From: Squalus acanthias
Lineage: Eukaryota
Reading direction: 5' to 3'
Assembly: GCA_030390025.1 (NCBI GenBank)
Contig: CM059431.1
Coordinates: 125,304,001-125,368,000, forward strand
DNA: 64,000 bases
The position numbers were made by a program, and so were the translations under genes. The stretch's first letter is position 1. Every line of letters starts with the position of its first letter. A model generated the notes under the pieces. That model searched no databases. It saw nothing but the letters and a program-made list of their open reading frames with translations, and was not told the DNA's origin. Below, piece after piece: positions 1-46,200 of this stretch.

Positions 1-1783
1 GTTATTTTGAAGCAAACCTCCAGATCTGTTGAGGCATCAGAATCTTCACTTGCTCTGTGAGAGCCCTGGTCTGGTGTGACTCTCATTTTATGTATGCTGT
101 GCATCTGTGGAATCATGAGCCTGGTGTTCAGAGGACAGCCTTTGTCCTCAAGCAGCCAGCCTAACACCCGACAGTCTGGGTGGAAGAGATTCGGTATTGA
201 GGACTGACGTAGGATGAGGCCATCAGGACTACTGCCAGGATACCAGTCACAGACCTGCATAAATCATTGCCTATGGTCGCAGATAGGTTGTTCATTTAAC
301 AAATTAAATCCCTTCCTGTTGCAGTAGAGGGTTTGGTCTTGTACAGGAGCACACAGAGCCACATCGATGCAGTTTATGACCCCCTCCACCTAAGGAGGTC
401 CAGAAACTCTTGCAAACCCCACTGCACTCTCCTCCTGCTTGGCAGCCTCCATTGGTGATGAATTCCTGGCAGCTAGCAAACAGTGCATCTGTGACCCCCT
501 TGTTTGCATTGTGCGCAGCAAACTGAGAAATGCTACTGATGTCACCTGCTCAATGTTGTAAGGAGCCCAATGCAGAAAGGTTCAGGGTCAGTGAGCTTCA
601 CAGCCACAGGCAGTGCTGTGGACACCCTGGTGCAGGGCTGCAATTTGTGGTTCAGCAGGTGGCAGAGGTAAGGCACTACCTCCTTGGGGAAACGGAGCCG
701 CTGGATGCACTGCTCCTCTGTAAAGTTGAGGTAGGTAATCCAGTTCCTGTGCACCCTCATGGTGTAAGGCTTCCTTCGCCTTCCCTCCTTTTGCTCTCTT
801 CCAGCAGCCTGTACAGCCCTCTGCGGTCTTTCTTGCTGCTGTTGCCATTGTCCCTGCTCCTCATGTCATAACCCCAAAGGCAGATCAAACAGAATACTTA
901 TGTTCCAACAATGTTGGGAAGGCAATCCTTGGACAGAGTGCAGGACCTCCCAAAAATCACACTTTGAGTTCAGGTCAGTGAAACAGCAGCTGAAACAAAC
1001 ATCAGTACCACACTCTGCAGTAACCTAACAACTCCAAACAGAGACTTACCTTAATGGAGGTGAGTATCCCTTTAAATAACACTTCTGGAGCATGCTTCCT
1101 GACTGTTAAGCCAATAACTTCCAGGTCAAGGTTAAGGCCCAGCGAATCAGGTGCTTCCACACACAAATTTAAGAAACAGGTCCTTATTTTTTTTCATTCA
1201 TTGGATGTGGGTGTCACTGACAAGGTCAGCATTTATTGCCCATCCCTAATTGCCCTTAGAAAGTGGTGGTGAGTCACCTTATACAAATGAGTGGCTTGCC
1301 AGGCCATTTCAGAGGGAAGTTAAGAGTCAACCACACTATGGGACTGGAGTCACATATAGGCCAGTATTTACTTCCCTAAAGGACATTAGTGAACCAGATG
1401 AGTTTTTACGACAATCTGGTAGTTTCATGGTCACCATTACTGATCCTAGCTTTTTATTCCAGATTTATTTAATTAACTGAATTAAAATTGTCTAGCTGCC
1501 GTGATAGGATTGGAATTCATGTCTCCAGATCATTACTCCAGATTACTAGTCCAGTAACATAACCACTATGCTACCATACCCTATGATTAGGCACAGGACC
1601 CTCATTTTAATATTTAAACCAAAACTGTGCTTCTTGCTGGCCGCCTAAAAAATCTCAGGACAAATTTAGCTGTGGCACAGGTGCACATGCAAATTGGGCG
1701 CGGGAAATCGCACTGCTAAATTCGTCATTGTTGCACTTGTTTCACGCCTGAGAAACAGGCGCAACTTTGTGGAATTTAGACCC
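1..1783 (-). mobile_element. Degraded PIF/Harbinger transposon (transposase relic about 20-870, terminus near 1783)
   Basis: ORF 542-760 (YLNFTEEQCIQRLRF...LQP...LPVAVK) matches the transposases at 14428 and 39843; YPGSS-type codons near 230-245; TIR-like GGAATTTAGACCC ending near 1783. Confidence 0.8.
1186..1581 (-). mobile_element. tRNA-derived SINE sharing its 5' about 300 nt with the LINE at 3357, followed by a LINE-type 3' tail and A-rich end
   Basis: Reverse complement of about 1285-1581 aligns with 3358-3675 (GGTAGCATAGTGGTTATGTTACTGGACTAGTAAT...GCAAGCCACTCA); ends in AATAAA...GAATGAAAAAAAA. Confidence 0.85.
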
Positions 1784-2220: not shown

Positions 2221-3356
2221 AAAGTACTTTTCTCTTATTCTAAAAGAAACCACTGAATATTTGAATATTTATCTCCTGTTTTTCAATGGCATCTACTCAC
2301 ACTTGATCACACAGTGGAGAAAAAGTCCTATGCCGCCGTCATTTTCTCATCAGGCCTATTAAAGAACCAGTTTTATACCCGGCACAATGTTAGTACATTT
2401 CTATTGTACACGGTTTAGTATTTGCACCATGAAAGTGAAAAATTCTGCCATCTATTAAATATCGATTGTAGCCAATACATTACAAAGATAGAAACTATTT
2501 TAAATAAAGCATTTGGGTTTGAACAAGCTAAGCAATTTTCCAAGTTTCATAATCAGCTATTGCTAGATTAGCCTTCAACATAACATATTGGTTCAATTAC
2601 AAAACCATTTACAGTAATTTGGTTAAACATAATAAAGTTATGAGTTCCCTCAAATCAGAGTCAGAAGCGTAATGCTGTGATAGCTTTTTAGGACATCTTA
2701 ATTATTAGAAATTAAATTACTTCAATTTTACTGTTAAGGAGGGAAAACAATTAAATGAGATAGAGATTGCAAAATGTTAATGAGATTGGTTCACTGCACA
2801 TGACCATGAAAGCTTTAAGTTAAACAGATGCTTCTCATTGTGCAAACAAGCACTCCTTATTGTGTGCCAAGGAATCATGGGGTCGATTTTTGTTTCTGCC
2901 CCATTTAGGCCCTATAAACAGAGAGGTAGCTAGATTGGGGGGTGAGGGGGAAATTGACTCACTGTTGGAGGTCGGTGCATTCTGATTTTCGGCCTGACCT
3001 TAATTTAGGTGACCAGCACTCCCGCTGGGACAAGCAGGGACCTAATTAAAATATTCAAACAGGGGTCAACTGATGTCAGGAGCCCCAATGCCATTTTTGT
3101 GTCTATCAGCAGTATTTCCTCAATCCTCCCACAAATCATAGGAGACAATAATAGCGCTATTTAAAGGGATACTCACCTGCTGTCATTTAAAATGCTGTAA
3201 AGTTTTGGAAGATATTTTGCTGGTAGTTTCTGGAGGTTTTGGCTTCTTAGGTGATGATAAAGTTCTTGTTGTTGCTGTACAACCTTCTGAAATCTAACAC
3301 ACAAAGGCAAACTAGATGGACCTTGGTCTTTTCTCATCGAGCAAAACCTATATTGT

Positions 3357-5324
3357 GGGGAACGGTAGCATAGTGGTTATGTTACTGGACTAGTAATCCA
3401 GTGGCCTGGACTAATGATCCAGTAGATGTAAGTTCAAATTCAGTTAATTAAATAAATCTGGAATATAAAAAAAGCTAGTATCAGTAATGGTGACCATGAA
3501 ACTATCGGATTGTCGTAAAAACCCATCTGGTTCACTAATGTCCTTTAGGGAAGGAAATCTGCCATTGTTACCTCGTCTGGCAGCTATGTGACCTCAGACC
3601 TATATGTGACTCCAGACCCACAGCAATGTGATTGATTCTTAACTTCCCTCTGAAATGACCGAGCAAGCCACTCAATGTAACAAACTGCTACAAAAAACAA
3701 TAATAAGAATAAAACCGGATGGTTGACTTCAGCACCGGCTTCTGATACGATAACGACACAGTCGACCCTGCAAAGTCCTCCTCACTAACGTCTGGGGACT
3801 TGTGCCAAAATTGGGAGAGCTCTCCCACAGACTAGTCAAGCAACAGCCTGACATAGTCATATTCACAGAATCATACCTTTCCTTCAATGTCCCAGACTCC
3901 TCCAGCACCATCCTTGAGTATGTCCTGTCCCACCGGCAGGACACACCCACCAGGGATGGTGGCACAGTGGTATATACAGTCGGGAAAGAGTGGCCCTGGG
4001 AGTCCTCAAAATTGACTCCGGACCCCATGAAGTCTCACGGCTTCAGGTCAAACAGGGGTAAAGAAACCTCCTGCTGATTACCACCTACCGCCCTCCCACA
4101 GCTGATGAATCAGTACTCCTCCATGTTGAACACCACTTGAAAGAAGCACTGAGAGTAGCAAGGGGACAGAATATACTCTGGGTGGGGGACTTCAACATCC
4201 ATCCCCAAGAGTGGCCCGGTAGCACCACTACTGACCGAGCTGGCTGAGTCCTGAAGGACATGGCTGCCAGGCTGGGCCTATGACAGGTTGTGAGAGAACC
4301 AACACGAGGGGAAAACCTACTTGACCTCATCCTTACCAATCTACCTGTCGCAGATGCATCTGTCCATGACAGCATTGGTAGCAGTGACCACCGCACAGTC
4401 CTTGTGGAGACAAAGACCCGTCTTCACATTGAGGTCAACCTCCATCGTGTTGTGTGGCCCTACCACCATGCTAAATAGGATGGATTCAGAACAGATCTAG
4501 CAGCTCAAAACTGGGCATCCATGAGGCGCTGTGGGCCATCAGCAGCAGCAGAATTGTATTCCACCACAATATGTAACCTCATGGTCCGGCATATCCCTCA
4601 CTCTACCATTACCATCAAGCCAGGGGACCAACCCTGGTTCAATGAGGAGTGCAGAAGATCATGCCAGGAGCAGCACCAGGCATACTTAAAAATGAGTGCC
4701 AACCTGGATAAGCTGCAACACAGGACTACATGCAAGCTAAACAGTGGGAGCAAGATGCTATAGACAGAGCTAAGCGATTCCACAACCAACGGATCAGATG
4801 AAAGCTCTGCGGTCCTGCCACATCCAGTCGTGAATGGTGGTGGACAATTAAACAACTAATGGGAGGAGGAGGCTCCATGAATATCCCCATCCTTAATGAT
4901 GGCGGAGCCCAGCACGCTAGTGCAAAAGACAAGGCTGAAGCCTTTGCAACCAGCTTCAGCCAGAGTGCCGAGTGGATGATCCATATCGGCTTCCTCCTGA
5001 CGTCCCCACCATCACAGAAGCCAGTCTTCAGCCAAATTGATTCACTCCACGTGATATCAAGAAACGGCTGAGCGCACTGGATACAGAAAAGGCTATGGGC
5101 CCCGACAACATCCCGGCTGTGGTGCCAGTACAGCTACAAGACTGGAATCGACCCGACAATGTGGAAAATTGCCCAGGTATATCCTGTCCACAAAAAGCAG
5201 GACAAATCCAATCTGGCCAATTACCGCCCCATCAGTCTACTCTCAATCATCAGCAAAGTGATGGAAGGTGTCGTCGACAGTGCTATCAAGCGGCACTTAC
5301 TCACCAATAACCTGCTCACCGATG
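3357..5324 (+). mobile_element. CR1-group LINE, 5' portion: tRNA-derived leader, APE endonuclease and start of RT; frameshifted and 3'-truncated
   Basis: LTNVWGL, PDIVIFTESYL, YRPP, WVGDFN, PTRGENLLDLILTN, SDH (APE); GPDNIP, WKIAQVYPVHKK, NYRPISLLS (RT N-terminus); A box TAGCATAGTGG at 3366-3376. Confidence 0.9.
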
Positions 5325-7127
5325 TTTTATCGGAAAGAGGACGAGGTGATGGTCGGTGATAGAGGAAAGCTAAGGAGTGTAGGACTGTTGGTGAATGGGG
5401 AGGTGTGGTTCAGGTTACTGGTATCACTCTGAATAATGTGATCACGGGCTCCCAGAAAGACAGGGGCTGTCTACGTTGTAGACTCCCTTCCTCTTCCTGT
5501 TCCTCCACTTCCTGTTGCACTTTCACCTGCTCCACTTCCTACGACTCCTCAGCTTCTCACCTGATAGGTATTGGCAAAGGCTGTTCCCTCACAATAGCCA
5601 GGTTGTGCAGCATGTAGCATACTACCGCAAATCTTGATACCCGCTCAGCTGAGCACTGCTGTGCTCCTCCAGCATGGTCCAGGCAGCAGAAGCATTGCTT
5701 GAGGATGCCGATGGTGTACTCTATGATATTACTTGAGGGAGCATGATTCTCATTGTACGCCTGCTTTGCATGTGTGCATGGGTTCCTGACCGGAATAATG
5801 AGCCATGTCATGAGGGGATAACACTTGTTGCCCAGTAGCCAGCTTTTGACTTGCCGTGGCAGTTCAAATACAGGTGAAACAGAGGACTGCCGCAGAATGA
5901 AACAATTGTGACTGCTGCCAGGATAATGGGCATCCACCCTAATGATGCCCTGCCTGTGGACACACACCAGCTGCACAATGAGGGAGTGGAATCCCTTTCA
6001 GTTGATGAAAATGGCCCTGTTCAGATGAGGAACACATAAGGCAATGTGCATGCAGTCAACGGCACCCTGCAACATGGGGAAGTCTGCAATCCGTGCAAAA
6101 CTTCATGCTTGCTCCCCTGCTTGTCTCTGGCAAGAGGGAATGAGATGAATGTGTTTCTCTGTGTGTAGAGAGCCTCAGTGACCTCCCTTATACAGCAGTG
6201 CACTGCAAACTGCGAGATAGTGCTTATATCTCCAGCAGCAGCCTGAAAGTAGCCAAACACATGAAAGCTAACAGCCACAGTTACCTTGACAGCCACAGGC
6301 AATGCTCTCCTTGCCATGCTTTGTGGCTGCAGTTGTGGCTGCAGCAGTTGGCAGATTTCACTTACGCCCTCTTTTGTGAAGCGAAGACGTCTCAAGCATC
6401 AGTCCTCGCTGCAGCTGATGTAAGTGTATTGCTCCCTGAAGACCCTTGACAGATATGGCCTCCTGCTAAGAGAGCCCTTTTTCCCCCTTTTCCTCCAGAG
6501 CAGCTTGTCCTGCTCTACGTGGCCTCTCTTCATTCTCCCAGTCATGTTCAATTCCTTCATTCTCCCAGTCATGTTCAATTCCAAGAGGAAGTCTTACCAG
6601 GCCACCTATGTCTGTAAGCAACTTGTTTCTGCACAAGCTTTTAATGAACAAAGATTAATTCAGCACCAGCCAGACCACTCCCTGTAGAGTACTCAAACTT
6701 TAGCCAAATTTAGAAAAATTCCAAAAATGCGTTCAATTGCATCAGCAGCCAGAAGAAATAATCCAGCAACTGATCTGTAAATAATTCGTCATCCCCTTTA
6801 AGTAGTGATGGTGGCGGGGGTTCTTCATTCCGTTTAACGTCGTGATTAGCAGTGTGAAGTTAAGACAGGGAGTTGGCAGGAGTGTGGGGATTCGAAAATG
6901 GCAGCGGTGGCTTCAAATCAGCATTGCACACTGATTTACGTCATCATCTCATTGCTTTGCATGCTGCCAGCGGTTGTTAGGCGTGAGCGTTCAAACCCCT
7001 TTACCAAGATGGCACCATGCGTACTTCCCATCGGAAGTGTGCGTGCGCATCTCGGACCCCATTTTCGAGTGTTAGGTAGCTGTGTAGCACCTAAGAAATG
7101 GTCACTACATGGCCCAATTTAGCCCCC
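5325..7127 (-). mobile_element. Truncated Harbinger transposon with disrupted transposase (about 5480-6580)
   Basis: ORFs 6021-6395 and 5557-5976 (QLVCVH, YPGSSHN, LLGNKCY, IIEYTIGILKQ); terminus CCCAATTTAGCCCCC near 7127; 27-bp tandem duplication at about 6530-6582. Confidence 0.88.
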
Positions 7128-8255: not shown

Positions 8256-10402
8256 AGAACATAAGGACATAAGAAATAGGAGCAGGAGTAGGCCATATGG
8301 CCCCTCGAGCCTGCTCCCCATTCAATAAGATCATGGCTGATCATCCACCTCCACTCCACTTTCCCACCCGATCTCCATATCCCTCGATTCCCCTAGAGTC
8401 CAAAAATCTATCTATCTCAGCCTTGAATATACTCAAAGACTAAGCATCCACAGCCCTCTGGGGAAGAGAATTCCAAAGGTTCACAACCCTCTGAGTGAAG
8501 AAATTCCTCCTCATCTCAGTCTTAAATGGCCTATCCCTTATCCTGAGTCTATGCCCCCTAGTTCCAGACACTCCAGCCAGGGGAAACAACCTCTCAGCAT
8601 CTTCCCTGTCAATCCTCTTCAGAATCTTGTATGTTTCAATGAGATCACCTCTCATTCTTCTAAACCCCAGAGAGTAAAGGCCCATTCTACACAATCTCTC
8701 ACCATAAGAAAGCCCTCTCATCCCAGGAATCAATCTAGTGAACCTTTGTTGCACCACCTCCAAGGCAAGTATATCCTTCCTTAGATAAGGAGACCAAAAC
8801 TGTGCACAATACTCCAGGTGTGGTCTCACCAAGGTCCTGTACAATTGTAGCAAGACTTTCTTACTCTTATACTCCAACCCCCTTGCAATAAAGGCCAACA
8901 TGCCATTTGCCTTCCTTATTGCTTGCTGTACCTGCATTCTAGCTTTCTGTGTTTCTTGCACGAGGACACCCAAATCTCTCTGAACACCAACATTTAAAAG
9001 TTTCTCACCATTTAAAAATGATTCTGTTTTTCTATTCTTCCTACCAAAGTGAATAACCTCACATTTCCCTACATTATACTCAATCTGCCACCTTACTGCC
9101 CATTCACTTAGTCTATCTATATCCCTTTGCTATGTTCTCCTCACAGCTTACTGTCCCATCTAGTTTTGTATCGTCAGCAAACTTGGATACATTGGCCTAG
9201 AAATTCGGGTGGCCGGCTTGCCGCGGGGTTAAGGATCGCGCGCGCTCTTACCTACCGCGCCTGCCGTTGTGTTTCAGGGCCCACAGGAACTTCGGGTCCT
9301 GGGCCTCTCCCTAGTGCCGGCGCGCAGTGCTTGCGTGTCCCAGGGGCGCAGTTAGTGCGATGCGACTCCTGGGATCACATGGGCCATGGAGAGCCAATGG
9401 CAGCAGACCATCTTTCATTCATAGATTTGACAGGAGACCTGTCAAATCTGTGAATTGAAATCGGCCCCAAAAGAACAGCTAAACCTCAAATAAATTTAAA
9501 AAAAAACATTTATAAAATAACTATAGTTAAATAAATTAACCACTTTAAACAAAAATTTAAATTTTTGAAAAAATTAAAATTCTTTTTAAAAGTTATAAAA
9601 ATAAACTTACCTTTCTTTAAAGTTTCTAAAAAAGATAAACCTGTTGAAAAAAAATTAAAATTATACTTAATTAACTACTTACCTTGATCAAAAGGAGTCT
9701 TACGCCTCCTTTTTACTTGTGTAAAATCTTCCATACTTACCCTCGCGTTGAAACCTGAAAAAAAACCTAAGTGTGCTGCGTGCGCGCAGCCTCTAGTGCG
9801 CACGTGGTTCACCTAGGAACCGCCCCCTTCGCCATACTGGAAGTGCCGGTTTCCCGTGCATGCAGGAAACCGGCACTTCGGGAACGAATACGGGTGAGTA
9901 TGCAGCGGGTACTCTCCCGTATTCGGACGAATTTTTGGGCCATTATACTCGGTCCCTTCATCTAGGTCATTAATATAGATTGTAAATAGCTGAGGCCCCA
10001 ACACTGATCCTTAAGGCACCCCACTAGTTACAGCCTGCCAACCTGAAAAAGACCCATTTATCCCTACTCTCTGTTTTCTGTCCATTGACCAATCCTCTAT
10101 CCATGCTACTATTTTAGCCCCAACCCCATGAACCCTTATCTTGTATAATAACGTTTTATGTGACACCTTATCGAATGTCTTTTGGAAATCCAAATATTCT
10201 ACATCCATTGGTTCCCCTTTATCTACCCTGCTAGTTACATCCTCAAAAAACTCGAATAAATTTGTCAAACACGATTTCCCTTTCATAAAACCATGTTGAC
10301 TCTACCGAATCATGTTATGATTTTCTAAGTGCCCTGATACCACTCACTTCCTTAACAATGGATTCCAGCATTTTCCCGACGACTGGTATAAGGCTAACTG
10401 GC
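8256..10402 (-). mobile_element. CR1 LINE, 5'-truncated RT region, interrupted by a MITE
   Basis: ORFs 10011-10286 (KSCLTNL, YLDFQK, SGVP) and 8440-8973 ([17 protein letters not shown]); (CTTATGTT)-type tail at 8256. Confidence 0.95.
9194..9941. mobile_element. MITE with GGCC termini and ATT TSD
   Basis: TIRs GGCCTAGAAATTCG / CGAATTTTTGGGCC; ATT at 9191-9193 and 9942-9944; removing it restores the CR1 sequence. Confidence 0.92.
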
Positions 10403-22399: not shown

Positions 22400-23988
22400 T
22401 AAGAACATAAGAACATAAGAACATAAGAAATAGGAGCAGGAGTAGGCCAATCGGCCCCTCGAGCCTGCTCCGCCATTCAATAAGATCATGGCTGATCTGA
22501 TCCTAACCGCCAATCTACTATCTATCACAGAACCATCTCCTGCATCTAACAGAATTGCACACACGAAATAGGAGCAGAATCAGGCTTCACAGTCCCTGGG
22601 CCCGCTCCACTACCCACAGGGCCATGACCGATCCGAACCTAGACTCATGTCCAAATTCCTGCCCGCTCCCCGTAACCCTTAATGCCCTTTACTTCTAGGA
22701 AACTGTCTATTTCTGTTTTAAATTTAATTAATGTTGTAGCTTCTACAGCTTTTTGTGGCAGCATATTCCATGGACCTACCACCCTCTGAGTGAAGTAGTT
22801 CCTCCTCATCTCAGTTTTGAAAGAGCAGCCCCTTATTCTAAGACTATGTCCCCTAGTTCTCGTCTCACCCGTCATCGGGAACATCCTCCCCGCATCCACC
22901 CGATCCAACCCCTTCACAATCTTATATGTTTCAATAAGATCGCCTCTCATTCTTCTGAACTCCAATGAGTAGAGTCCCAATCTACCCAACCTCTCCTCAT
23001 ATGACCACCCCCTCATCCCCGGGATTAACCGAGTGAACCTTTTTTGCACTGCCTCGAGAGCAAGGATGTCTTTCCTTAAGTAAGGACACCAAAACTGTAT
23101 GCAGTATTCCAGGTGCGGTCTCACCAATACCTTGTACAACTGAAGCAATACCTCCCTATTTTTATATTCTATCCCCCTAGCAATGAAAGCCAACATTCCA
23201 TTTGCCTTCTTAATCACTTGCTGCACCTGCATACTAACCTTTTGAGTTTCGTGCACCAGGACCCCCAGATCCCTTTGCACTTCAGTACTCTCCAGTTTCT
23301 TGCCATTAAGATAATAAATTGCTCTAGGATTTTTCCTGCCAAAGTGCATCACCTCACACTTTCCAGTGTTGTATTCCATCTGCCAAATCTCTGCCCACTT
23401 ACTTAGCCTGTCTATGTCCCCTTGCAGGTTTTTTATGTCCTCCTCACTCACTACTTTCCCTCCCATTTTTGTATCATCTGCAAATTTTGATATGTTACAC
23501 TTGGTCCCTTCCTCCAAATCGTTAATATAGATTGTGAAGAGTTGGGGACCCAGCACTGACCCCTGTGGAACACCACTAGTTACTGATTGCCAGTCTGAGA
23601 ATGAACCATTTATCCCAACTCTTTGCTTTCTGTTAGATAGCCAATCCTCTATCCATGCCAGAATATTACCCCCAATCCCGTGATTTTTTACCTTAAGCAA
23701 TAATCTTTTGTGTGGCACCTTGTCAAATGCCTTTTGGAAGTCTAAATACACTACGTCCACTGGTTCCCCTTTATCCACTCTATATGTTACTTCCTCAAAG
23801 AACTCCAGCAAATTTGTCAAACATGACTTCCCCTTCGTAAAACCATGCTGACTTTGTCCTATTAAATTATGATTATCCAAATGTCCTGTTACTGTTTCCT
23901 TAATAATGGACTCCAAAATTTTACCTACCACAGATGTTAGGCTAACCGGTCTATAGTTACCAGCCTTCTGTCTACTGCCCTTTTTAAA
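22400..23988 (-). mobile_element. Young 5'-truncated CR1 LINE
   Basis: Uninterrupted RT ORF and a perfect (TAAGAACA)n tail at about 22400-22428. Confidence 0.95.
22645..23931 (-). CDS. CR1 ORF2 reverse transcriptase, C-terminal 428 aa (open but 5'-truncated)
   Basis: QHGF, YLDFQKAFD, GVPQGSVLGP, FADD, RDLGV, RPHLEY motifs with no stop. Confidence 0.9.
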   Translation of the reverse strand: MVGKILESIIKETVTGHLDNHNLIGQSQHGFTKGKSCLTNLLEFFEEVTYRVDKGEPVDVVYLDFQKAFDKVPHKRLLLKVKNHGIGGNILAWIEDWLSNRKQRVGINGSFSDWQSVTSGVPQGSVLGPQLFTIYINDLEEGTKCNISKFADDTKMGGKVVSEEDIKNLQGDIDRLSKWAEIWQMEYNTGKCEVMHFGRKNPRAIYYLNGKKLESTEVQRDLGVLVHETQKVSMQVQQVIKKANGMLAFIARGIEYKNREVLLQLYKVLVRPHLEYCIQFWCPYLRKDILALEAVQKRFTRLIPGMRGWSYEERLGRLGLYSLEFRRMRGDLIETYKIVKGLDRVDAGRMFPMTGETRTRGHSLRIRGCSFKTEMRRNYFTQRVVGPWNMLPQKAVEATTLIKFKTEIDSFLEVKGIKGYGERAGIWT

Positions 23989-28144: not shown

Positions 28145-30955
28145 AACAACAACATCCATTGAATATAGCACCTTTAATGTAAAAAATGTTCCCAAGGAAC
28201 TTCACAGTGGTGTAAATAAAAATAGATGCCGAGCCAAAGAAGGAGAGATTAGGAGGGGTGACTGAAAGCCTGTTGAAAGAAATGGGTGTCCAGGACGGTC
28301 TTAAAGGAGGAGAGGGAGCAGAAGGATTTTAGGGAGGGAATTCCAGAGTGTGTGGCCTAGGTTCAGCCACTAATGGTGGGATGGAAGGAGGAGGGAAAAG
28401 GAAAAGATGCCAGAGTTCAAAGAACAGAAAGTACAGAAGGAGTAGTACAACAGGAGGAGGTTATGGTGATAGGGATGGGCAAGGTCGTGGAGGGATTTAA
28501 ACACAAGGATGAGAATTTAAAAGTTGTGGAATTTGGGAACCGGAACCAATATAGGTAATTGAGGACAGGGGTGATGAGTGAGTGGGACTTGATGTGGGAT
28601 AGAATACAGATAGCAGAGTTTTGGAGGAGCTGATATTTACAGAGGGTGGGGGATAGGAGGGTGGAGGATGCAAGGCTGGCCAGAAGAACTTTGGAGACAT
28701 TTATCAAGTGTTTACCAAAGAAGAGGACTTTGCCAAAGCTATGGTAAATGAGGAGGTTGGAGGGATACTGGATGAGATAAAAATAAAGAGGAGCTACTAG
28801 TAAAGCTGGCCGTACTTAAAGTAAATAAATCACATTGCTGAGGGAAGTAAGGGTAGAAATTGCGGAGGTGCTGGCCACAATCTACCAATCCTCCTTAGAT
28901 ACAGGGGTGATGCCAGAGGACTGGAGGATTGCAAATGTTGCACCCTTGTTCAAAAAAGGGGAGAAGGATAAACCTGACAATTACAGGCCAGTCAGTTTAA
29001 TGATGCTGGTGGGGAAGCTTTTAGAAACAATCTGGAGAAAATTAAAAGCCACTTGGACAAGTATGGACTAATAAAGGAGATCTAGCACGGATTTGCTGAG
29101 GGCAAATTGTGTTTGACTAACTTGATTGAGTTTTTTGATGGGGTAACGGAGAGGGTGGATGAGGGCAGTGCAGTTGATGTTGTGTATATAATCTTTCAAA
29201 AGGCGTTTGATAAAGTACCACATAATAGGCTTGTTAGCAAAATTGAAGCCCATGGGAAAAAAGGGGCAGTAGCAACATGGATACAAAATTGGTTAAGGGA
29301 TAGAAAACAGAGAGGGGTGGTGAATGGCTGTTTTTCAGACTGGAGGGAGGTATGTTTAGGTGTTCCCCAGGGATCAGTACTAGAACCACTGCAGGTTTTG
29401 ATATGCATTAATGACTTGGACTTGGGGGTACAAGGCACAAAATTTGCAGATGGCACGAAACATGAAAGTGTAATAAACAGTGATGAAGATAGTAATAGAC
29501 TTCAAGAGGACATAGACAGGCTGGTGGAATGGGTGGACACATGGCAGATGAAATTCAATGCAGAAAAGTGTGAGGAGCTATATATTTGGTAGGAAGAATG
29601 ATGAGAGACAATACCATCTAAATGACACAATTTTAAAGTGGGTGCAAGAACAGAGAGGCCTGGGGGTGTTTGTGCACAAATCTTTGAAGGTGGCAGGACA
29701 GGTTAACAGAGCAGTTAATAAAGCATATGGGATCATGGGCTTTATAAATAGAGGCATAAAGTACAAAAGCCAGGAAGTTATGCTAAACCTTATAAAACAC
29801 TGGATTGGCCCCAGCTGGAGTATTGTGTCCAGTTCTGGGCACCACACTTTAGGAAGGACGTGAAGGCTTTGGAGAGGGTACAGAAGAGATTTACTAGAAT
29901 GGTTCCAGGCATGAGGGATAACAGTTACGTGGATAGACTGGAAAAGTTGGTGTTGTTCTCCTTAGAGCAGAGAAGGCTAAGAGGAGACTTGATAGAGGTG
30001 TTTAAAATCATGAAGGGTTTAGATAGAGTAAATAAAGAGAAACTGTTCCCAATGGCTGAAGGGTCAATAACCACAGCGACGACATGAGGAAAAACTTTTA
30101 CATGCAAGGAGTGGTTAGGATTTGGAATGCACTGCCTGATAGGGTGGTGGAAACAGATTCAATAGTAGCCTTCAAAAGGGAATTGGATAAATACTTGAAG
30201 GGGAAAAACTTGCAGGGATATGGGGAAAGAGAGCCGGGAAGTAGGACTAACTGGATTTCTCTTCGCAAGAGCCGGCGTAGACTCAATGGGCCAAATGGCC
30301 TCCTTCTGTGCTGTACTATTCTATGATTCTATGAATCAAACCTAGAGATGATAACGGCATAAAGTGGCTGTAGTTAGGGATGGAGGTGAACAAAGTTATG
30401 GAGGTGGAGGTAGATGGCCTTTTTGATGGAAATGTTACGGGGTCTGAAACGTAGCAAAGGGTTAAACATAATAGTAAGGTTACAAACAGTCTTGTTTAGT
30501 TTGAGGCAGTGTCCAGGAGGAGGACATTTTGCCAGTGACAAAGGTACGGAATTTGTGTTGTGGGTCAATGGCTTCAGTCTTCCCAAAGTTTACCTGGAGG
30601 AAATTATGTCTTATTCAAGACTGGATGTTGGACAAGCAATCTGAAAGCACAGAGGAAGCGGAGGGGCAAAGAGAGGTGGTGGAGAGCTAAAGTTGCATGT
30701 CATCAATGCACATATGGATGCCAAAGAGGAGGGGTCAAGATAGATCTTTGACAAACTACAGACTTAATGGTGAGAGGGCAGGAAAAGAAGCTATTGCTCG
30801 AGATGCTCTGGCTACAATTGGATAGGTAAGAGTGGATCCAATAGAGGGCAGTCCCACTGAGCTGAACAACAGAGGAGGAGTGATGAAGGAGCATGACGTG
30901 ATCAACTGTCGACAACTGCAGAGAGGTTAAGGAGGGATAATGCACCACTGTAACA
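28145..30955 (-). mobile_element. L2-type LINE 3' region (28145-28696 and 30335-30955) split by a CR1
   Basis: YQLLQNSAICIL..HSLITPVLNYLYW (ORF 28417-28707); VDH..LL..L, WIHSYLSN (ORF 30703-30990). Confidence 0.8.
28697..30333 (+). mobile_element. CR1 LINE, degraded RT region
   Basis: ORFs 28835-30326 with PEDWRIANV, NYRPVSL, FQKAFD, GVPQGSVL; tail ctatgattctatga. Confidence 0.95.
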
Positions 30956-31494
30956 TTCACAGAGGCTAGAATCAAAGAATGATACTGCACAGATGGAGGT
31001 CATTCGGACCACCGTGCCTGTGCCGGCTCTTTGAAAGAACTATCCCATTAGTCCCATTCCCCTGCCCTTTCCCCATAGCCCTGCAAACATTCCCCTGTAA
31101 GTATTTATCCAATTTCCTTTTGAAAGTTATTATTGAATCTGCTTCCACCGCCCTTTCAGGCAATGCATTTCAGATCATAACAACTCGCCACGTAAAAAAA
31201 ATCTCTTCATCTCGCCTCTGGTTCTTTTGCCAATGACCTTAAATCTGTCTCCTCTGAATACTGACCCTTCTGCCACTGGAAACAGCTTCTCCTTAATTAC
31301 TCTATAAAACCCTTCCTGATTTTGAACACATCTATTCAATCTCAACTTAACCATCTCTGCTCTAAGGAGAAAAACCCCAGCTTCTCTAGGGTCTCCGCAT
31401 AAGTGATGTCCCACATTCCTGGTACTATTCTAGTAAATCTCCTCAGCACTCTTGACATCCTTCCTAAAGTGTGCAGCCCAGAATTGGACACAAT

Positions 31495-33113: not shown

Positions 33114-34745
33114 TATGCCTTTGATTATAAAGCCAAGAATTCTGGCCATTTAACAGCCTTCTCAACTTATCCTGCGACCTTCAAAGATTTATGTACATAT
33201 ACCCCCAGGTCTCTCTGTTCCTGCACCCGCTTTAAAATTGTACCATTTAGTTTATATTGCCTCTCCTTCTTCTTCCTATTAAAATGCATTACATCAAACT
33301 TGTATCACTTCAAAATTCTCTGTGTTAATTTGCATCTGCCATGTGTTTGCCCATTTCACCAGTCTGTAGTCTGTCTATGTCCTCCTGAAGTCTATTACTA
33401 TCCTCCTCACTGTTTACTACATTTCCGAGGTTTGTGTCATCAGCAAACTTTGATATTGTGCCCTGTGTACCCAAGTCCTGGTCATTAATATATATCAAGA
33501 AAAAGCAGTGGTCCTAATACTGACCCGTGGGGGACACCACTTCTTTCGAGTCTGAAAAATAACCATTCACCACTACTCTCTGCTTTCTGTCTCTGAGCCA
33601 AATTTGTATCCATGTTGCCACTGCCCCTTTAATCACGTAAGCTTTAATTTTGCCAACAGGTCTATTATGTGGTACTTTATAAAATGCTTTTTGACAGTCC
33701 ATGTACACAACATCAACCGCATTACCTTCATCAACCCTCTCTGTTATTTCATCAAAGAACTCAATCAAGTTAATCAAACAAGATTTGCCTTTAATTAACC
33801 CATATTTTTCCAAGTGAAAATTAATTTTGTCTCAGATTATTGTCTCTAAAATTTTCCCCACCACAGACTTTAGGCTGACCGGCCTGTCGTTGCTCCGTAT
33901 TATCCCTCTCCCCTATTTTGAACAGGCGTAACATTTACAATCCTCGACTGCTCTCGCACCACTTCCATAAGGAGAATTGGTAGATGGTGGCCAGAGCATC
34001 TGCTATCTCCACCCTTACTTCCCTTAGCAAACTAGGATGTATCCCATCTGGACCGGGTGACTTTTCTACTTTGAGCACTGCCAACCTTTTAAGTACCTCC
34101 TCTTTATCTATTTTTATCCTATCCAATTTCTCTACTCATGGAAATGTTTTCTATCTCCTCCTTTATTATGACACTGGCAGCATCCTGAGCCGTGCCCTAT
34201 GCCTCCACAAGAAGATCACCTTTTTAGTCCCTATTCGGCCCATCCTTCCATTTACTACCCATATGATTATCAAAGACTCTGAGTTCCCTTTTATTTTACC
34301 TGCTAATCTATTCTCACACACATCCTTTTTGCCCCTTATTTCCTTTTTTGGTTCTCTTCTGTACTTTTTGTATTCAGCTTGTTTCTCTACTGTATTATGA
34401 GCCTGACATTTATCTAAGCATACTTTTTCATTTTAATATCTATGGCCGCAAAATTCGGTTCTGTAGCTTTGGCTGGTTTGAAGAAAAAATGCCGTCTGCC
34501 TCATTTCTGCCCAGTTCCGGCATGGCCCACGCTGAACACCATCTTGGTGAGGGCGATAGCGTGGGTAGTACGTGTGTGCGCCGGCAGCATGCAGAGTAGG
34601 AAGATCGTGACATTAATCAGCGTGCAACGCTGATTTGACTCATGGCTTGCCATTTTCAACCTCGCCGCTCCATTCAACACACTCTCTTAAATAAAAGTGA
34701 GAAGTCGCACAACACCAGGTTATAGTCCAACAGTTTTATTTGAAA

Positions 34746-43201: not shown

Positions 43202-46200
43202 AGTCCTTGGCTGGAAAATGTAGTCACAGGTCTCTCCAGGCCGAGATTCTAGGCTCCAATGAGCAGGGTGTGGCTGGAGAGCAAGATTGACCCTCCCCTT
43301 TAAGAACTGGCTGGCGCCAGTGTGTCTGTGTTCCATCGCTAATTGACATCACCTGCGCTGCGCCCGCGCTCTGAGTTAGCACCTCGCTCCTCGGCCTTTG
43401 TGCCTTAAGATAGGTGTGAAGCGCCTGATTTAGCGCTCCAATCACCTCCAGGGGCGATAGAAGCCAAGTTTGCAGTCGGAGGCGATAATTAGCGCCAGGC
43501 ACTAAACTTTGCACCCGGCCGATAATTGCGCCCCAAACGGGGCGATACTGAATCGCTCCCCCTTTGACTGCAGAAATTATTATGGGGAATAAGGAAATGG
43601 CAGAAATGTTAAACAAATATTTTGTACCTGTCTTCACAGTAGAAGACACAAAAAGCATACCAAAATTGATAGGGAACCAAGGGTCTAATGAGGGTGAGGA
43701 ACGTAACGTAATTAATTTAAGTAGAGAAAAAGTACTAGAGAAACTAATGGGACTAAAAGCCAACAAATCCCCTGGACCTGACGGCCTATATCCTAGGGTT
43801 CTAAAAGAGGTGGCTGAAGAGATAGTGGATGCATTGGTTTTGATCTTCCAAAATTCCCTAGATTCTAGAACGGTCCCAGCGTTTGGAAGGTCGTAAATGT
43901 AACACCGCTATTCAAGAAAGGATTTAGAGAGAAAACAGGGAACTACAGGCCAGTTAGCCTGACATCAGTCGTCGGGAAAATGCTGGAATCCATTGTTAAG
44001 GAAGTGGTATCAGGGCACTTAGAAAATAGTAACATGATTAGGCAGAGTCAACATGGTTTTATGAAAGGGAAATCGTGTTTGACAAATTTATTAGAGTTTT
44101 TTGAGGATGTAACTAGCAGGGTAGATAAAGGGAAACCAGTGGATGTAGTATATTTGGATTTCCAAAAGGCATTCGATAAAGGTTATTACACAAGATTAGG
44201 GCTCATGGGGTTCGGGGTAATATAATAGCATGCATAGAGGATTGGTTAACGGACAGAAAACAGAGAGCAGGGATAAACGGATCTTTTTCAGGTTGGCAGG
44301 CTGTAACTAGTGGGGTGCCGCAAGGATCAGTGTTGGGGCCTCAGCTATTAACAATCTATATTAATGACCTAGATGAAGGGACCGAGTGTAATGTATCCAA
44401 GTTTGCTGATGATACAAAGCTAGGTGGGACAGTAAGCTGTGAGGAGAACACAAAGAGTCTGCAAAGGGATATAGATAGACTAAGTGAGTGGGCAGTAAGG
44501 TGGCAGATGGAGTATAATGTAGGGAAATGTGAGGTTATTCACTTTGGTTGGAAGAATAGAAAAACAGAATATTTTTTAAATGGTGAGACACTTTTAAATG
44601 TTGGTGTTCAGAGAGATTTGGGTGTCCTCGTGCAAGAAACACAGAAAGCTAGCATGCAGGTACCGCAAGCAATAAGGACGGCAAATGGCATGTTGGCCTT
44701 TATTGCAAGGGGGCTGGCTTATAAGAGTAAGAAAGTCTTGCTACAATTGTACAGGGCCTTGGTGAGACCACACCTGGAGTACTGTGCACAGTTTTGGTCT
44801 CCTTATCTAAGGAAGGATATACTTGCCTTGGAGGCGGTGCAACAAAGGTTCACTAGATTGATTCCTGGAATGAGAGGGCTGTCCTATGATGAGAGATTGT
44901 GTAGAATGGGTCTATACTCTCTGGAGTTTAGAAGAATGAGAGGTGATCTCATTGAAACATACAAGATTCTGAAGGGGATTGACAGGGTAGATGCTGAGAG
45001 GTTGTTTCCCCTGGCTGGAGTGTCTGGAACTAGGGGGCATAGTCTCAGGATAAGGGGTAGGCCACTTAAGACCGAGATGAGGAGGAATTTCTTCACTCAG
45101 AGGGTTGTGAATCTTTAGAATTCTCTGCCCCAGAGGGCTGTGAATGCTGAGTCTCTGAGTATATTCAAGGCTGAGATAGATAGATTTTTGGACTATAGGG
45201 GAATCAAGGGATATGGAGATGGGGCGGGAAATTGGAGTTGAGGTCAATGAACAGCAGGCTCGAAGGTCCGTATGGCCTACTCCTGCTCCTATTTCTTATG
45301 TTCTTATTAAAACATGTTAACAAAAAAGGGTTCGGCTCAGCCTATAGAATCTTTCACTTGAGACTGCAAGGACAACCATAATACTAATCTAGGGGGATAC
45401 ATTTGCTCTGTGCATTTTGTGCAATAAAATCATAAACTCGCTGATAAAGAACATTTATGATTTCACTACAAAGAGCACACAAAGGAAATTTTCCGCCATA
45501 ATTAGCAGCCACTCTTTGCAAAACTAGAATCAGAGAAACTGTCTGTATCTGAATTTATACAACCCGAGCACATTCGCTTCAATTCGTATTTCCAGTTTGA
45601 AGTTCATCCCTGTTGGATATCATTGAAAGCCTGTCTGTTGACTGTCTAAATGCTCTCCTTATTACAAGAAAATGTCAAGCAGCTGGGCAATGCCTCCCTC
45701 CAGGTCTTAATATCTAAATTGCATTCTAGGATGTATCCCACTGGGGCAGGGGGTCAGGGGGTTGCTTTCAGCATAAAATAAAAAACAAGACTGTTTAATA
45801 AAATTCTGTATCCCTTCTTTGCCATATCATTGAAATAAATCAACAGGTGTTTGACCTATCTTTCATAAGAGATCTGATTATTAATAATTTACTTAAATGT
45901 CTAGAGGCTGGCTCTGTCTCCCTGGTTGAAAATCTAATAAAATATTATCCATTAAAAGCATCTGTCTACATTTAGCGCTCCAAATCAGATAATACATTCG
46001 GCACTGAGCATATTTTTTTATTTGCTTCTTTGAAAAGATAATCTTTTTGTGGGTCCTGTTAACTATTTACCATTATCTTTCCACGTATGCTTCAAGCAAT
46101 TCCTCTTCGTTCAATGCAGCCAATCATTTTAGATTCAAGACGGTATTTAAGTTTCCTAGCAATATGATTATTTAGTATGCGAACTAAGATGCCCATTCAT

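What the first reader, a model, noticed from the sequence alone, without database searches (positions are those of the whole stretch)
3357..5324. Candidate Pol III-transcribed, ORF1-less LINE with a tRNA-derived head and no TTTT terminators
Seen: the element begins with an A box (TAGCATAGTGG, 3366-3376), a 5-bp-stem, 7-nt-loop anticodon arm (CTGGA-CTAGTAA-TCCAG, anticodon position AGT, 3385-3401), a second copy of that arm (3406-3422) and a B-box-like AGTTCAAATTC (3431-3441). APE motif I follows at about 3775, leaving no room for an ORF1. Reading the sense strand 3357-5324 by eye gives no TTTT and only three TTT (3544, 3878, 4943). A runs are common, almost all Phe codons are TTC, and the first TTTT is at 5325, exactly where the LINE is cut off. 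The ordinary CR1 copies in this window have many sense-strand T4-T6 runs. Known: vertebrate Pol III terminates at four or more T, and LINEs are normally Pol II transcripts. Inference: this family may be transcribed from an internal tRNA promoter and selected against terminators along its coding region, which raises the question of how an uncapped RNA is translated.
Basis: partly seen in the sequence, partly recalled or inferred. Interest (0 to 1): 0.9.

Follow-up and report, generated by a model that had tools for sequence, protein, structure and literature searches.

The report
LINE family with a tRNA-derived head
This is one copy of an abundant 3.3-kb jumping gene whose complete copies all begin with the tRNA-like start normally seen only on short SINE repeats and which almost entirely lacks the T-runs that stop RNA polymerase III, so it may be a protein-coding retrotransposon copied by that polymerase, though no RNA evidence exists yet.

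Summary
It is not a chance SINE/LINE neighbourhood. Window 3357-5324 is a 3'-cut copy of a ~3.3-kb family with one ORF (endonuclease plus reverse transcriptase) and thousands of copies.

- **Head:** 18 of 29 other loci found with the head alone run straight into the LINE body. Of 30 copies found with the endonuclease region alone, none has a different leader, and the longest end at the tRNA-like start.
- **SINE link:** the companion SINE is the same element with its middle deleted.
- **Long-lived lineage:** variants shared between copies are enriched for synonymous changes (P=2.5e-7).
- **T-runs:** a majority sequence of 17 copies has no TTTT in 3299 nt and 7 TTT. All 39 intact relatives from other organisms have at least 4 TTTT and none has a head. 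Stricter nulls give only P=0.11-0.21 for zero TTTT.
- **ORF1:** its absence is normal for this clade.
- **3' end:** AATAAA, a hairpin, then 0-8 T before the A tail, resembling mammalian T+ SINEs.
- **Start codon:** the ORF has no in-frame AUG.

Pol III transcription is plausible (about 0.45) but unshown, because no RNA data were usable. I found no published description of it. The scan had not noted this sequence before.

The parts
3357..3441 (+). tRNA-derived head. A box at 3366-3376, anticodon-type arm at 3385-3401, duplicated arm at about 3405-3422, and B-box-like AGTTCAAATTC at 3431-3441. This copy has the variant with a 28-nt deletion.
   Evidence: An A box plus B box at 64-65 nt spacing was found in 8 of 8 family copies tested. 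ARAGORN calls a tRNA in 1 of 8 heads. Rfam tRNA finds none of 4 family-1 heads. A related head without the duplication scores 23.8 bits, below the gathering score of 29.
3442..3680 (+). Leader shared with the SINE form (majority-sequence positions ~90-310). It ends at the in-frame TAA at 3678-3680.
   Evidence: SINE-only copies match element positions 1 to ~274-391 and then jump to the last ~100-190 nt. An older SINE family matches positions ~138-314.
3681..3782 (+). A-rich stretch followed by a CpG-rich stretch. The long open frame begins here in the majority sequence, with no in-frame ATG. This copy is decayed.
3783..4700 (+). Apurinic-type endonuclease region of the single ORF, with stops and frameshifts in this copy.
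   Evidence: Pfam PF14529 and PF03372 match the same region of copy L035. tblastn of relative P0004 covers 4062-4685.
4769..5324 (+). Linker and first part of the reverse transcriptase. The copy is cut at majority-sequence position 2021.
   Evidence: tblastn of P0001 and P0004. Pfam PF00078 matches L035. The alignment to the majority sequence covers its positions 1-2021 and window 3357-5324 at 88.9% identity.
1187..1581 (-). SINE form of the same family: majority-sequence positions 2-309 joined to 3197-3295.
   Evidence: Its 3' hairpin shows a change on both sides of one pair.

Best explanation
**Shown.** The window holds a 3'-cut copy of an abundant, once autonomous non-LTR retrotransposon of about 3.3 kb.
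- Its first ~310 nt are a tRNA-derived SINE-type module: a head with A and B boxes plus a body.
- An ORF of ~970 codons follows, encoding an endonuclease and a reverse transcriptase.
- The 3' tail holds AATAAA inside a two-tier hairpin and ends in an A run.
- The companion SINE is the same element with its middle removed.
- The headed LINE evolved as a lineage under purifying selection on its ORF.

**Inferred.** RNA polymerase III, recruited by the internal A/B boxes, starts at element position 1. The sense strand has no run of four or more T until the very 3' end, so the polymerase can read through all 3.3 kb. This full-length RNA is the template that the element's reverse transcriptase copies, after recognising the 3' hairpin in cis or in trans as it does for the SINE. 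The enzyme would come either from this uncapped RNA by non-AUG internal initiation, or from a minority of Pol II transcripts.

The confidence of 0.45 is for the whole statement including Pol III. For the structural part alone it is about 0.95.
For: **Head at the 5' end**
- 34 of 39 non-self matches to the head start at query position 1-3.
- 18 of 29 fetched loci continue collinearly from the head into the LINE.
- 9 of 12 extended loci are uninterrupted elements of 3041-3333 nt.
- 30 copies were sampled by the endonuclease region alone. Their 5' ends fall at positions 1-2 (3 copies), 6-14 (4), 20-90 (6), 100-200 (4) and 240-400 (13). All are collinear with the head or leader, and their upstream flanks are unrelated to one another.
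- An A box and B box are present in 8 of 8 tested copies.

**SINE link**
- 9 of 11 SINE-only loci join the head and leader to the LINE's last ~100-190 nt, at several different breakpoints.

**Lineage under selection**
- Non-CpG variants shared by 3 or more copies are 50 of 88 synonymous. Singletons are 310 of 1068 synonymous (Fisher P=2.5e-7).

**T runs**
- The majority sequence has 0 TTTT and 7 TTT in 3299 nt, against 45, 49 and 38 runs of three or more A, C and G.
- The part of the ORF not shared with the SINE has 5 TTT against 15.7 expected and 0 TTTT against 3.0 expected.
- A synonymous-codon shuffle gives 5 TTT against a mean of 11.25 (P=0.004).
- Among 40 ORFs the target has the lowest T content and the lowest ratios of T3 and T4 runs to expectation.
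- All 39 intact relatives have at least 4 TTTT, 1120 in total against 837 expected.
- None of 80 related loci has an A box plus B box upstream of its ORF on the sense strand.
- The 17 genomic copies carry 12 internal TTTT in 52.8 kb. Each is private to one copy except one site shared by 3 copies.

**3' end**
- 6 of 25 copies have four or more T directly before the A tail, and the T count ranges from 0 to 8. This is the pattern described for T+ SINEs transcribed by Pol III (PMC9599045, passages read).

**Features awkward for a capped, scanned mRNA**
- There is no in-frame ATG before codon 287.
- Four AATAAA/ATTAAA hexamers lie in the first 345 nt.
Against: - There is no RNA evidence at all. No listed run is on record as RNA, and only contigs could be laid.
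- Zero TTTT is weak evidence on its own: P=0.11 by synonymous-codon shuffle and P=0.21 under a first-order Markov model. That model also gives P=0.14 for 7 or fewer TTT. Most of the signal is low T content (0.196) and TT depletion (0.72 of expectation), which could be compositional.
- One relative without a head (L115) shows a stronger codon-shuffle depletion of TTT (z = -3.75 against -2.62 for the target).
- Natural Pol III transcripts of this length are not known to me (recalled). Kojima gives weak Pol III processivity as the reason autonomous elements need Pol II (PMC10886601, passages read).
- The conserved AATAAA and A tail also fit ordinary Pol II polyadenylation.
- 19 of 25 copies have 3 or fewer T at the 3' end.
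- In 5 of the ~33 heads aligned, the B box is deleted.
- No target-site duplications were detectable in 13 full-length copies.
Confidence: 0.45

Rival explanations
1. The headed LINE is real but is transcribed by Pol II from an internal promoter in the head or leader, like other LINEs. The tRNA module is a captured 5' end kept for another reason, such as promoter activity for Pol II or RNA stability. T-run poverty is a by-product of T-poor, C-rich codon use.
For: - AATAAA lies in the tail and at the very end before the A run.
- Zero TTTT is not significant under the Markov or codon nulls.
- A CpG-rich stretch lies at positions ~345-420.
- Published opinion holds that LINEs are Pol II transcripts (PMC5786205; PMC10886601).
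Against: - A Pol II internal promoter would have to place its start exactly at the Pol III-type start, 9 nt before the A box.
- The family is the extreme of 40 ORFs for T-run poverty, while its headless relatives are normal.
- There is no in-frame AUG, and four poly(A) hexamers lie in the leader.
- The T count before the A tail varies from 0 to 8.
Confidence: 0.35
2. No headed master ever existed. Each head-LINE copy arose anew when the reverse transcriptase switched from LINE RNA to SINE RNA within a shared leader.
For: The SINE and LINE share ~300 nt of leader, so a switch there would leave no visible joint. The same head variants occur in both body subfamilies.
Against: - 0 of 30 copies sampled by the endonuclease region show another leader or 5' end. 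All 13 that reach upstream of position 100 carry head sequence.
- The arm duplication is present in the LINE and SINE forms alike.
Confidence: 0.08
3. This is a chance juxtaposition of a SINE and a 5'-truncated LINE at this one locus.
For: None after testing.
Against: The same collinear junction occurs in 18 of 29 head-sampled loci on many contigs.
Confidence: 0.01

Closest known systems
SacSINE1 / LmeSINE1 Deu-SINEs of cartilaginous fish and coelacanth, with their L2-2_CM-type partner LINE (Luchetti et al. 2017, PMC5499810; abstract and passages read)
   Same: A tRNA-derived head with A and B boxes, a conserved body, a length of ~185-425 nt, and a 3' tail shared with a LINE.
   Different: That paper reports only tail homology with the LINE, whereas here the LINE itself carries the head and body. 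Identity of this family with SacSINE1, or of its body with the Deu domain, rests on my recall and was not tested. No reference sequence was available and the paper's supplements could not be read.
Bipartite non-autonomous LINEs and SINEs whose bodies come from LINE 5' parts, such as Bov-tA/Bov-B and the RTE and Vingi cases (Kojima 2018, PMC5786205; abstract and passages read)
   Same: The SINE consists of the LINE's 5' part plus its 3' part, with a tRNA head in front.
   Different: - In those cases the head sits on the SINE only, and the autonomous LINE is taken to be a headless Pol II transcript.
- Only the RTE and Vingi clades were found to contribute. The C-terminal motif of the ORF here looks like the CR1/L2 type to me (recalled).
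[quoted passage not shown] This is the only printed hint of a tRNA-like piece in a LINE that I found.
T+ SINEs of placental mammals, such as B2, Dip, Ves and Can (PMC9599045; passages read)
   Same: A tRNA-derived head, AATAAA near the 3' end, a T run directly before the A tail, and descendants with shortened T runs.
   Different: - Those elements are shorter than 600 nt, non-coding, moved by L1, and reported only from placental mammals.
- Here only 6 of 25 copies have four or more T before the tail, and the element encodes its own enzyme.
TRIMp3 elements (Cassandra, Helenus, Ajax): LTR retrotransposons with a Pol III promoter (Kojima 2024, PMC10886601; passages read)
   Same: A retrotransposon that has taken a small-RNA-derived Pol III promoter as its own.
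   Different: All of them are short (up to 1263 nt) and non-autonomous. The author argues that autonomous partners must use Pol II.
R2 elements (recalled; no paper read here)
   Same: A LINE with one ORF that is made by a polymerase other than Pol II (as a Pol I co-transcript), is uncapped, and is often without a clear AUG.
   Different: R2 relies on site-specific insertion into rDNA and on a self-cleaving ribozyme. It has no internal promoter.

Membership tests
tRNA-derived SINE head (SINE2 type) | A box close to TRGCNNAGTGG near the 5' end | tested here: met
   TAGCATAGTGG lies at element position 10. It was found in 8 of 8 copies scanned.
tRNA-derived SINE head (SINE2 type) | B box close to GGTTCGANNCC, 30-90 nt after the A box | tested here: met
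   AGTTCAAATCC or AGTTCAAATTC lies 64-65 nt after the A box in 8 of 8 copies. It is deleted in 5 of the ~33 heads aligned.
tRNA-derived SINE head (SINE2 type) | Recognisable tRNA cloverleaf | tested here: inconclusive
   ARAGORN finds a tRNA in 1 of 8 heads. Rfam tRNA finds 0 of 4 family-1 heads. A related head without the arm duplication scores 23.8 bits against the gathering score of 29.
Autonomous APE-type LINE | One ORF with an apurinic-type endonuclease and a reverse transcriptase | tested here: met
   PF14529 and PF03372 match with E values of 2.7e-13 and 5.9e-10, and PF00078 with 2.3e-27. The majority sequence has an open frame of 973 codons. There are 1566 homologues at E<=1e-10, many of 930-990 aa.
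Autonomous APE-type LINE | 5' truncated copies, a common 3' end, and dispersed copies | tested here: met
   The endonuclease region has at least 4791 candidates in the genome.
Autonomous APE-type LINE | Target-site duplications | tested here: not met
   In 13 full-length copies the best flank matches are no longer than in mismatched pairs. Many CR1/L2-type LINEs make none (recalled), so this does not exclude membership.
CR1/L2 clade (L2-2_CM-like) | Placement of the reverse transcriptase with reference clade members in a phylogeny | not testable with these tools
   No Repbase or Dfam references were held. The 3' stem-loop is present. The C-terminal motif that looks like this clade is recalled only.
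Deu-SINE superfamily | Body matches the Deu-domain consensus | not tested
   No reference sequence was available. A 36-nt stretch of the body was found in no paper text.
Pol III type-2 transcription unit | Internal A/B promoter with the start a few nt upstream of the A box | tested here: met
   The 5' ends of the copies lie 9 nt before the A box. This is an indirect proxy for the transcription start.
Pol III type-2 transcription unit | No run of four or more T before the intended 3' end | tested here: met
   There are none in the 3299-nt majority sequence. The statistical weight is moderate.
Pol III type-2 transcription unit | RNA actually made by Pol III | not testable with these tools
   No run on record as RNA was found.
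T+ SINE-type 3' end | AATAAA, then a terminator (four or more T, or TCTTT), directly before the A tail | tested here: inconclusive
   AATAAA is present in nearly all tails. Four or more T before the tail occur in 6 of 25 copies, two or three T in 7, and one or none in 12.

The most novel reading that the evidence does not exclude
RNA polymerase III makes a 3.3-kb protein-coding retrotransposon RNA from a captured tRNA-type promoter. It terminates at a T run at the element's own end, and the RNA is then polyadenylated through AAUAAA, as in mammalian T+ SINEs. The enzyme is translated from this uncapped RNA without an AUG. On this reading the SINE and the LINE are two length forms of one Pol III-driven element, and SINEs of this type arise again and again by internal deletion of a headed LINE.
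Probability: 0.3. Interest if true: 0.92.

Novelty: new variant of a known kind. Interest (0 to 1): 0.77.

Why it matters
- **Textbook view.** LINEs are taken to be Pol II transcripts, and SINEs to be Pol III parasites that borrow only the LINE's tail. Here the autonomous element itself carries the SINE head and body at its 5' end, and the SINE is simply the LINE with its middle deleted.
- **Origin of SINE bodies.** This gives a concrete, testable route for how SINE bodies arise.
- **Pol III limits.** If Pol III does read the element, this would be a natural case of that polymerase making a long coding RNA. It would bear on the limits of Pol III processivity, on translation of uncapped RNA, and on why Pol III templates can do without ORF1 protein in the L1 system (PMC2666806, abstract read).
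- **If Pol II is the polymerase.** A LINE that has recruited a SINE as its 5' end and kept it through subfamily turnover would still be unusual.
- **How to decide.** The Pol III question can be settled directly with RNA 5'-end chemistry and Pol III ChIP.

Tried and rejected
- **RNA evidence.** No RNA holder was listed. Contigs of four coded runs from four coded organisms hold both the SINE and LINE forms, including joints that skip ~2850-2900 nt. Contigs cannot show starts, ends, strand or expression.
- **Target-site duplications.** None rose above background.
- **A second headed LINE family.**
  - The older head type without the arm duplication has at least 2235 candidates, but 0 of 10 fetched copies continue into a LINE.
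  - The single case where such a head is joined to LINE sequence (L010:356-1479) has no closer relatives than family 1, at 72-76% identity.
  - There is therefore no independent replicate.
- **Heads in relatives.** ARAGORN finds no tRNA in 80 related metagenome loci. My first B-box pattern was too strict and missed the positive controls, and I corrected it.
- **Start codon.**
  - ATG(339), present in 21 of 30 copies, is out of frame with the endonuclease and opens only 11-55 codons. By eye I saw no canonical slippery heptamer.
  - ATG(284) is followed by two in-frame stops in most copies.
- **Literature.** Searches for a tRNA-headed or Pol III-transcribed LINE found no description. A 36-nt body string occurs in no paper text. 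The supplements of PMC5499810 could not be read and may hold the SacSINE1 and L2-2_CM alignments that would settle the naming. Repbase and Dfam could not be consulted.
- **Earlier notes of this scan.** No look-alike by sequence and none for this genome. Two word matches from other genomes concern different elements and did not change my reading.
Full report
**1. The observation**

The window lies in a 3.7-Gb genome.
- The A box, the two anticodon-type arms and the B-box-like motif are at the stated coordinates.
- The sense strand of 3357-5324 has no TTTT and three TTT, at 3544, 3878 and 4943. Its A runs are at the expected frequency.
- The first TTTT is at 5325, exactly where similarity to other copies ends.
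- Five other LINE fragments in the window have sense-strand runs of four or more T at 0.9-2.4 times the expectation from base composition.

**2. The unit is real**

The head and leader (3357-3720) have at least 6863 candidates in the genome. Of 39 non-self matches, 34 start at query position 1-3.

Of the 29 non-self loci fetched with 1.5-kb flanks, 18 continue without a break from the head into the LINE body and 11 are SINE-only. Twelve loci were extended. Nine of them are uninterrupted elements of 3041-3333 nt with the same two ends, and three carry later insertions or rearrangements.

To avoid sampling on the head, I also searched with the endonuclease region (at least 4791 candidates, the best 92-93% identical) and fetched 30 copies.
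- Their 5' ends lie at positions 1-2 (3 copies), 6-14 (4), 20-90 (6), 100-200 (4) and 240-400 (13).
- All are collinear with the head and leader, the flanks differ from copy to copy, and none has another leader.
- This is the ordinary 5'-truncation pattern of a LINE whose full length begins at the tRNA-like start.

**3. Anatomy**

*Head (about 100 nt in the full form).*
- It begins GGGGAACGG. The A box TAGCATAGTGG starts at position 10.
- An arm whose loop reads CTAGTAA follows, then a tandem second copy of that arm, then a T arm holding AGTTCAAATCC.
- Three head variants occur: the full form; a 28-nt deletion between two TT(C/T)AAAT repeats that keeps a B-box-like AGTTCAAATTC (this is the window copy's form); and a 20-nt deletion that removes the B box (5 of the ~33 heads aligned).
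- tRNA finders barely recognise the head. ARAGORN finds 1 of 8, and Rfam finds none of the 4 family-1 heads scanned. A related head without the arm duplication scores 23.8 bits against a gathering score of 29.

*Leader, ORF and tail.*
- A leader runs to about position 310.
- It is followed by an A-rich and then a CpG-rich stretch.
- An endonuclease (PF14529, PF03372) and a reverse transcriptase (PF00078) follow.
- The tail reads ...GGGATGGGCAATAAATGCTGGCCTTGCCAGCGACGCCCACATCCCATGAACGAAT, then 0-8 T, then an A run.
- The tail folds into the same two-tier hairpin, with AAUAAA in its internal loop, in 4 of 4 copies folded. Z-scores against shuffles are modest, from -2.15 to +0.35.

*Majority sequence.* A majority sequence of 17 copies (made in a script for counting only) is 3299 nt long and has one open frame of 973 codons. 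The copies differ from it by 2.8-7.5%.

**4. Relation to the SINE**

Nine of the 11 SINE-only loci join element positions 1 to ~274-391 directly to the last ~100-190 nt of the LINE, at several different breakpoints. One such SINE lies in the window at 1187-1581 on the minus strand. Contigs from four other coded organisms show the same kinds of joint. The SINE is therefore an internally deleted form of the headed LINE, made more than once.

**5. The headed LINE was a living lineage**

Within the ORF, non-CpG variants seen in one copy only (decay after insertion) are 29% synonymous (310 of 1068). Variants shared by three or more copies (changes in the source lineage) are 57% synonymous (50 of 88; Fisher P=2.5e-7). 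Both groups of copies defined by these shared variants include head-bearing full-length members. So the element coded for a working protein while it carried the head. It was not a dead chimera.

**6. T runs**

*In favour of depletion.*
- The majority sequence has no TTTT and 7 TTT, against 45, 49 and 38 runs of three or more A, C and G.
- In the part of the ORF not shared with the SINE there are 5 TTT against 15.7 expected by composition, and 0 TTTT against 3.0.
- Shuffling synonymous codons gives a mean of 11.25 TTT (P=0.004).
- I compared 39 intact ORFs of related LINEs from metagenome contigs (30-40% amino-acid identity). Every one has at least 4 TTTT, 1120 in total against 837 expected. 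The target has the lowest T content (0.189; the next lowest is 0.239). Its ratios of observed to expected runs are also the lowest: 0.31 for TTT (next 0.68) and 0 for TTTT (next 0.45).
- None of the 80 related loci has an A box plus B box upstream of its ORF on the sense strand, while 8 of 8 family copies do.
- In 17 genomic copies (52.8 kb) there are 12 internal TTTT. All are private to one copy except one site shared by three copies, where the majority sequence reads TTTC.

*Against over-reading it.*
- The synonymous-codon shuffle gives P=0.11 for zero TTTT.
- A first-order Markov model gives P=0.21 for zero TTTT and P=0.14 for 7 or fewer TTT. TT is at 0.72 of expectation, so the signal lies mostly in T poverty and TT avoidance, which selection against T runs would cause but so could composition.
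- One headless relative (L115) has a stronger codon-shuffle z-score for TTT.

**7. The 3' end**

The number of T directly before the A run varies: none in 1 copy, one in 11, two in 5, three in 2, four in 4 and five in 1, among 24 ends. Copy L035 adds a run of eight. So the only place where runs of four or more T recur in the family is its very end.

This arrangement, with AATAAA nearby, a terminator before the A tail and many descendants with a shortened T run, is what is described for mammalian T+ SINEs. In those, Pol III stops in the element's own T run and the RNA is then polyadenylated (PMC9599045, passages read). That paper says T+ SINEs are known only from placental mammals. It also says T stretches can lengthen after insertion, so this pattern is suggestive and not decisive.

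**8. Translation**

- The long frame is open from position 311, but its first in-frame ATG is codon 287, far inside the endonuclease.
- ATG(284) is followed by two in-frame stops in most copies.
- ATG(339), present in 21 of 30 copies, is out of frame and opens only 11-55 codons.
- An in-frame ACG lies at position 320.
- Shared variants at positions 382-436 are all synonymous in the endonuclease frame (4 of 4), while those at 311-341 are not (0 of 5). This hints that coding starts between them, but the numbers are small.
- Relatives begin with Met just before the endonuclease.
- How this ORF is started is open. Unusual initiation fits an uncapped RNA but does not prove one.

**9. ORF1**

Homologues are mostly 930-990 aa proteins on contigs of 3.2-3.8 kb. 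Related intact elements have 84-330 nt before their single ORF. The lack of ORF1 is therefore normal for this group. In the L1 system, Pol III-made templates need only ORF2 protein (PMC2666806, abstract read). That is compatible with the Pol III reading but adds nothing to it here.

**10. Mechanism**

*Shown:* a headed, autonomous LINE and its deletion-derived SINE.

*Inferred:* the A and B boxes recruit Pol III, which starts at position 1. The T-run-free strand allows read-through to the end, and the reverse transcriptase binds the 3' hairpin and copies the RNA. I put this at about 0.45. The main rival, Pol II transcription with the head kept for other reasons, is at about 0.35. Repeated template switching stands at about 0.08 and chance juxtaposition at about 0.01.

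**11. What is known**

- Kojima's survey of Repbase found LINE 5' parts in SINE bodies only for the RTE and Vingi clades. [quoted passage not shown]
- His 2024 paper argues that autonomous elements must use Pol II because Pol III has weak processivity (PMC10886601).
- Luchetti et al. describe SacSINE1 (tRNA head, Deu body) in sharks and report that it shares only its tail with L2-2_CM (PMC5499810). I suspect this family is of that kind, but I could not test it.
- Seven literature searches found no description of a tRNA-headed or Pol III-driven LINE.
- Repbase and Dfam could not be checked, so prior annotation there cannot be excluded.

**12. Verdict**

- The structural reading is confirmed and extended.
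- The Pol III reading is plausible and testable but unproven.
- This is a new variant of a known kind.
- Interest is 0.77.

Noticed in passing
window 1187-1581 (-): A SINE-form copy of the same family. Its 3' hairpin carries a G-C to A-T change on both sides of one pair.
   Followed up: partly
window 31305-31395 (-): ARAGORN calls a 91-nt tRNA-Ser (anticodon AGA). I did not examine whether it is a gene or another SINE head.
   Followed up: no
window 8389-10343 (-), 22744-23985 (-), 28835-29586 (+), 33364-34126 (-), 43711-45190 (+): Five fragments of other LINEs (22-40% amino-acid identity to the query proteins) with normal or excess sense-strand T runs. I used them as in-window controls.
   Followed up: partly
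majority-sequence positions 284-483 (window ~3655-3830): The long ORF has no in-frame ATG. An ATG present in 21 of 30 copies opens a conserved out-of-frame reading of ~48 codons (MKPDGPPGIDLGTGYGHGNGTPSPVDPAKSSSPTSGDLCQNWESCPTD) that overlaps the start of the endonuclease frame.
   Followed up: partly
L010:356-1479: An older, ~25% diverged copy in which a head without the arm duplication (Rfam tRNA 23.8 bits) and ~180 nt of leader are joined directly to the end of the endonuclease and the reverse transcriptase. This is the only such case seen, and it hints that the head-LINE link predates the duplication.
   Followed up: partly
L133-L142: An older SINE family with at least 2235 candidates. Its head is cleaner and more tRNA-like (loop CTAGCAA), and it is related to this family's body and tail. 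0 of 10 copies run into a LINE.
   Followed up: partly
L031:3762-3918: Directly after the A tail of this full-length copy lies an inverted copy of ~157 nt of the LINE's 3' region, tail to tail.
   Followed up: no
majority-sequence position ~527 (copies L032, L040, L049): The only internal run of four or more T shared by more than one copy. The majority sequence reads TTTC there, so parallel C-to-T change is likely.
   Followed up: no
L019 and L023 (same contig, ~145 kb apart): Two SINE-only copies with the same upstream flank and the same head deletion, so probably a segmental duplication and not two insertions.
   Followed up: no
window 5335-5513: The sequence that replaces the missing 3' part of the LINE resembles L013:509-687 at 69% identity, so it is probably another repeat. 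The cause of the 3' cut at 5324 was not worked out.
   Followed up: no
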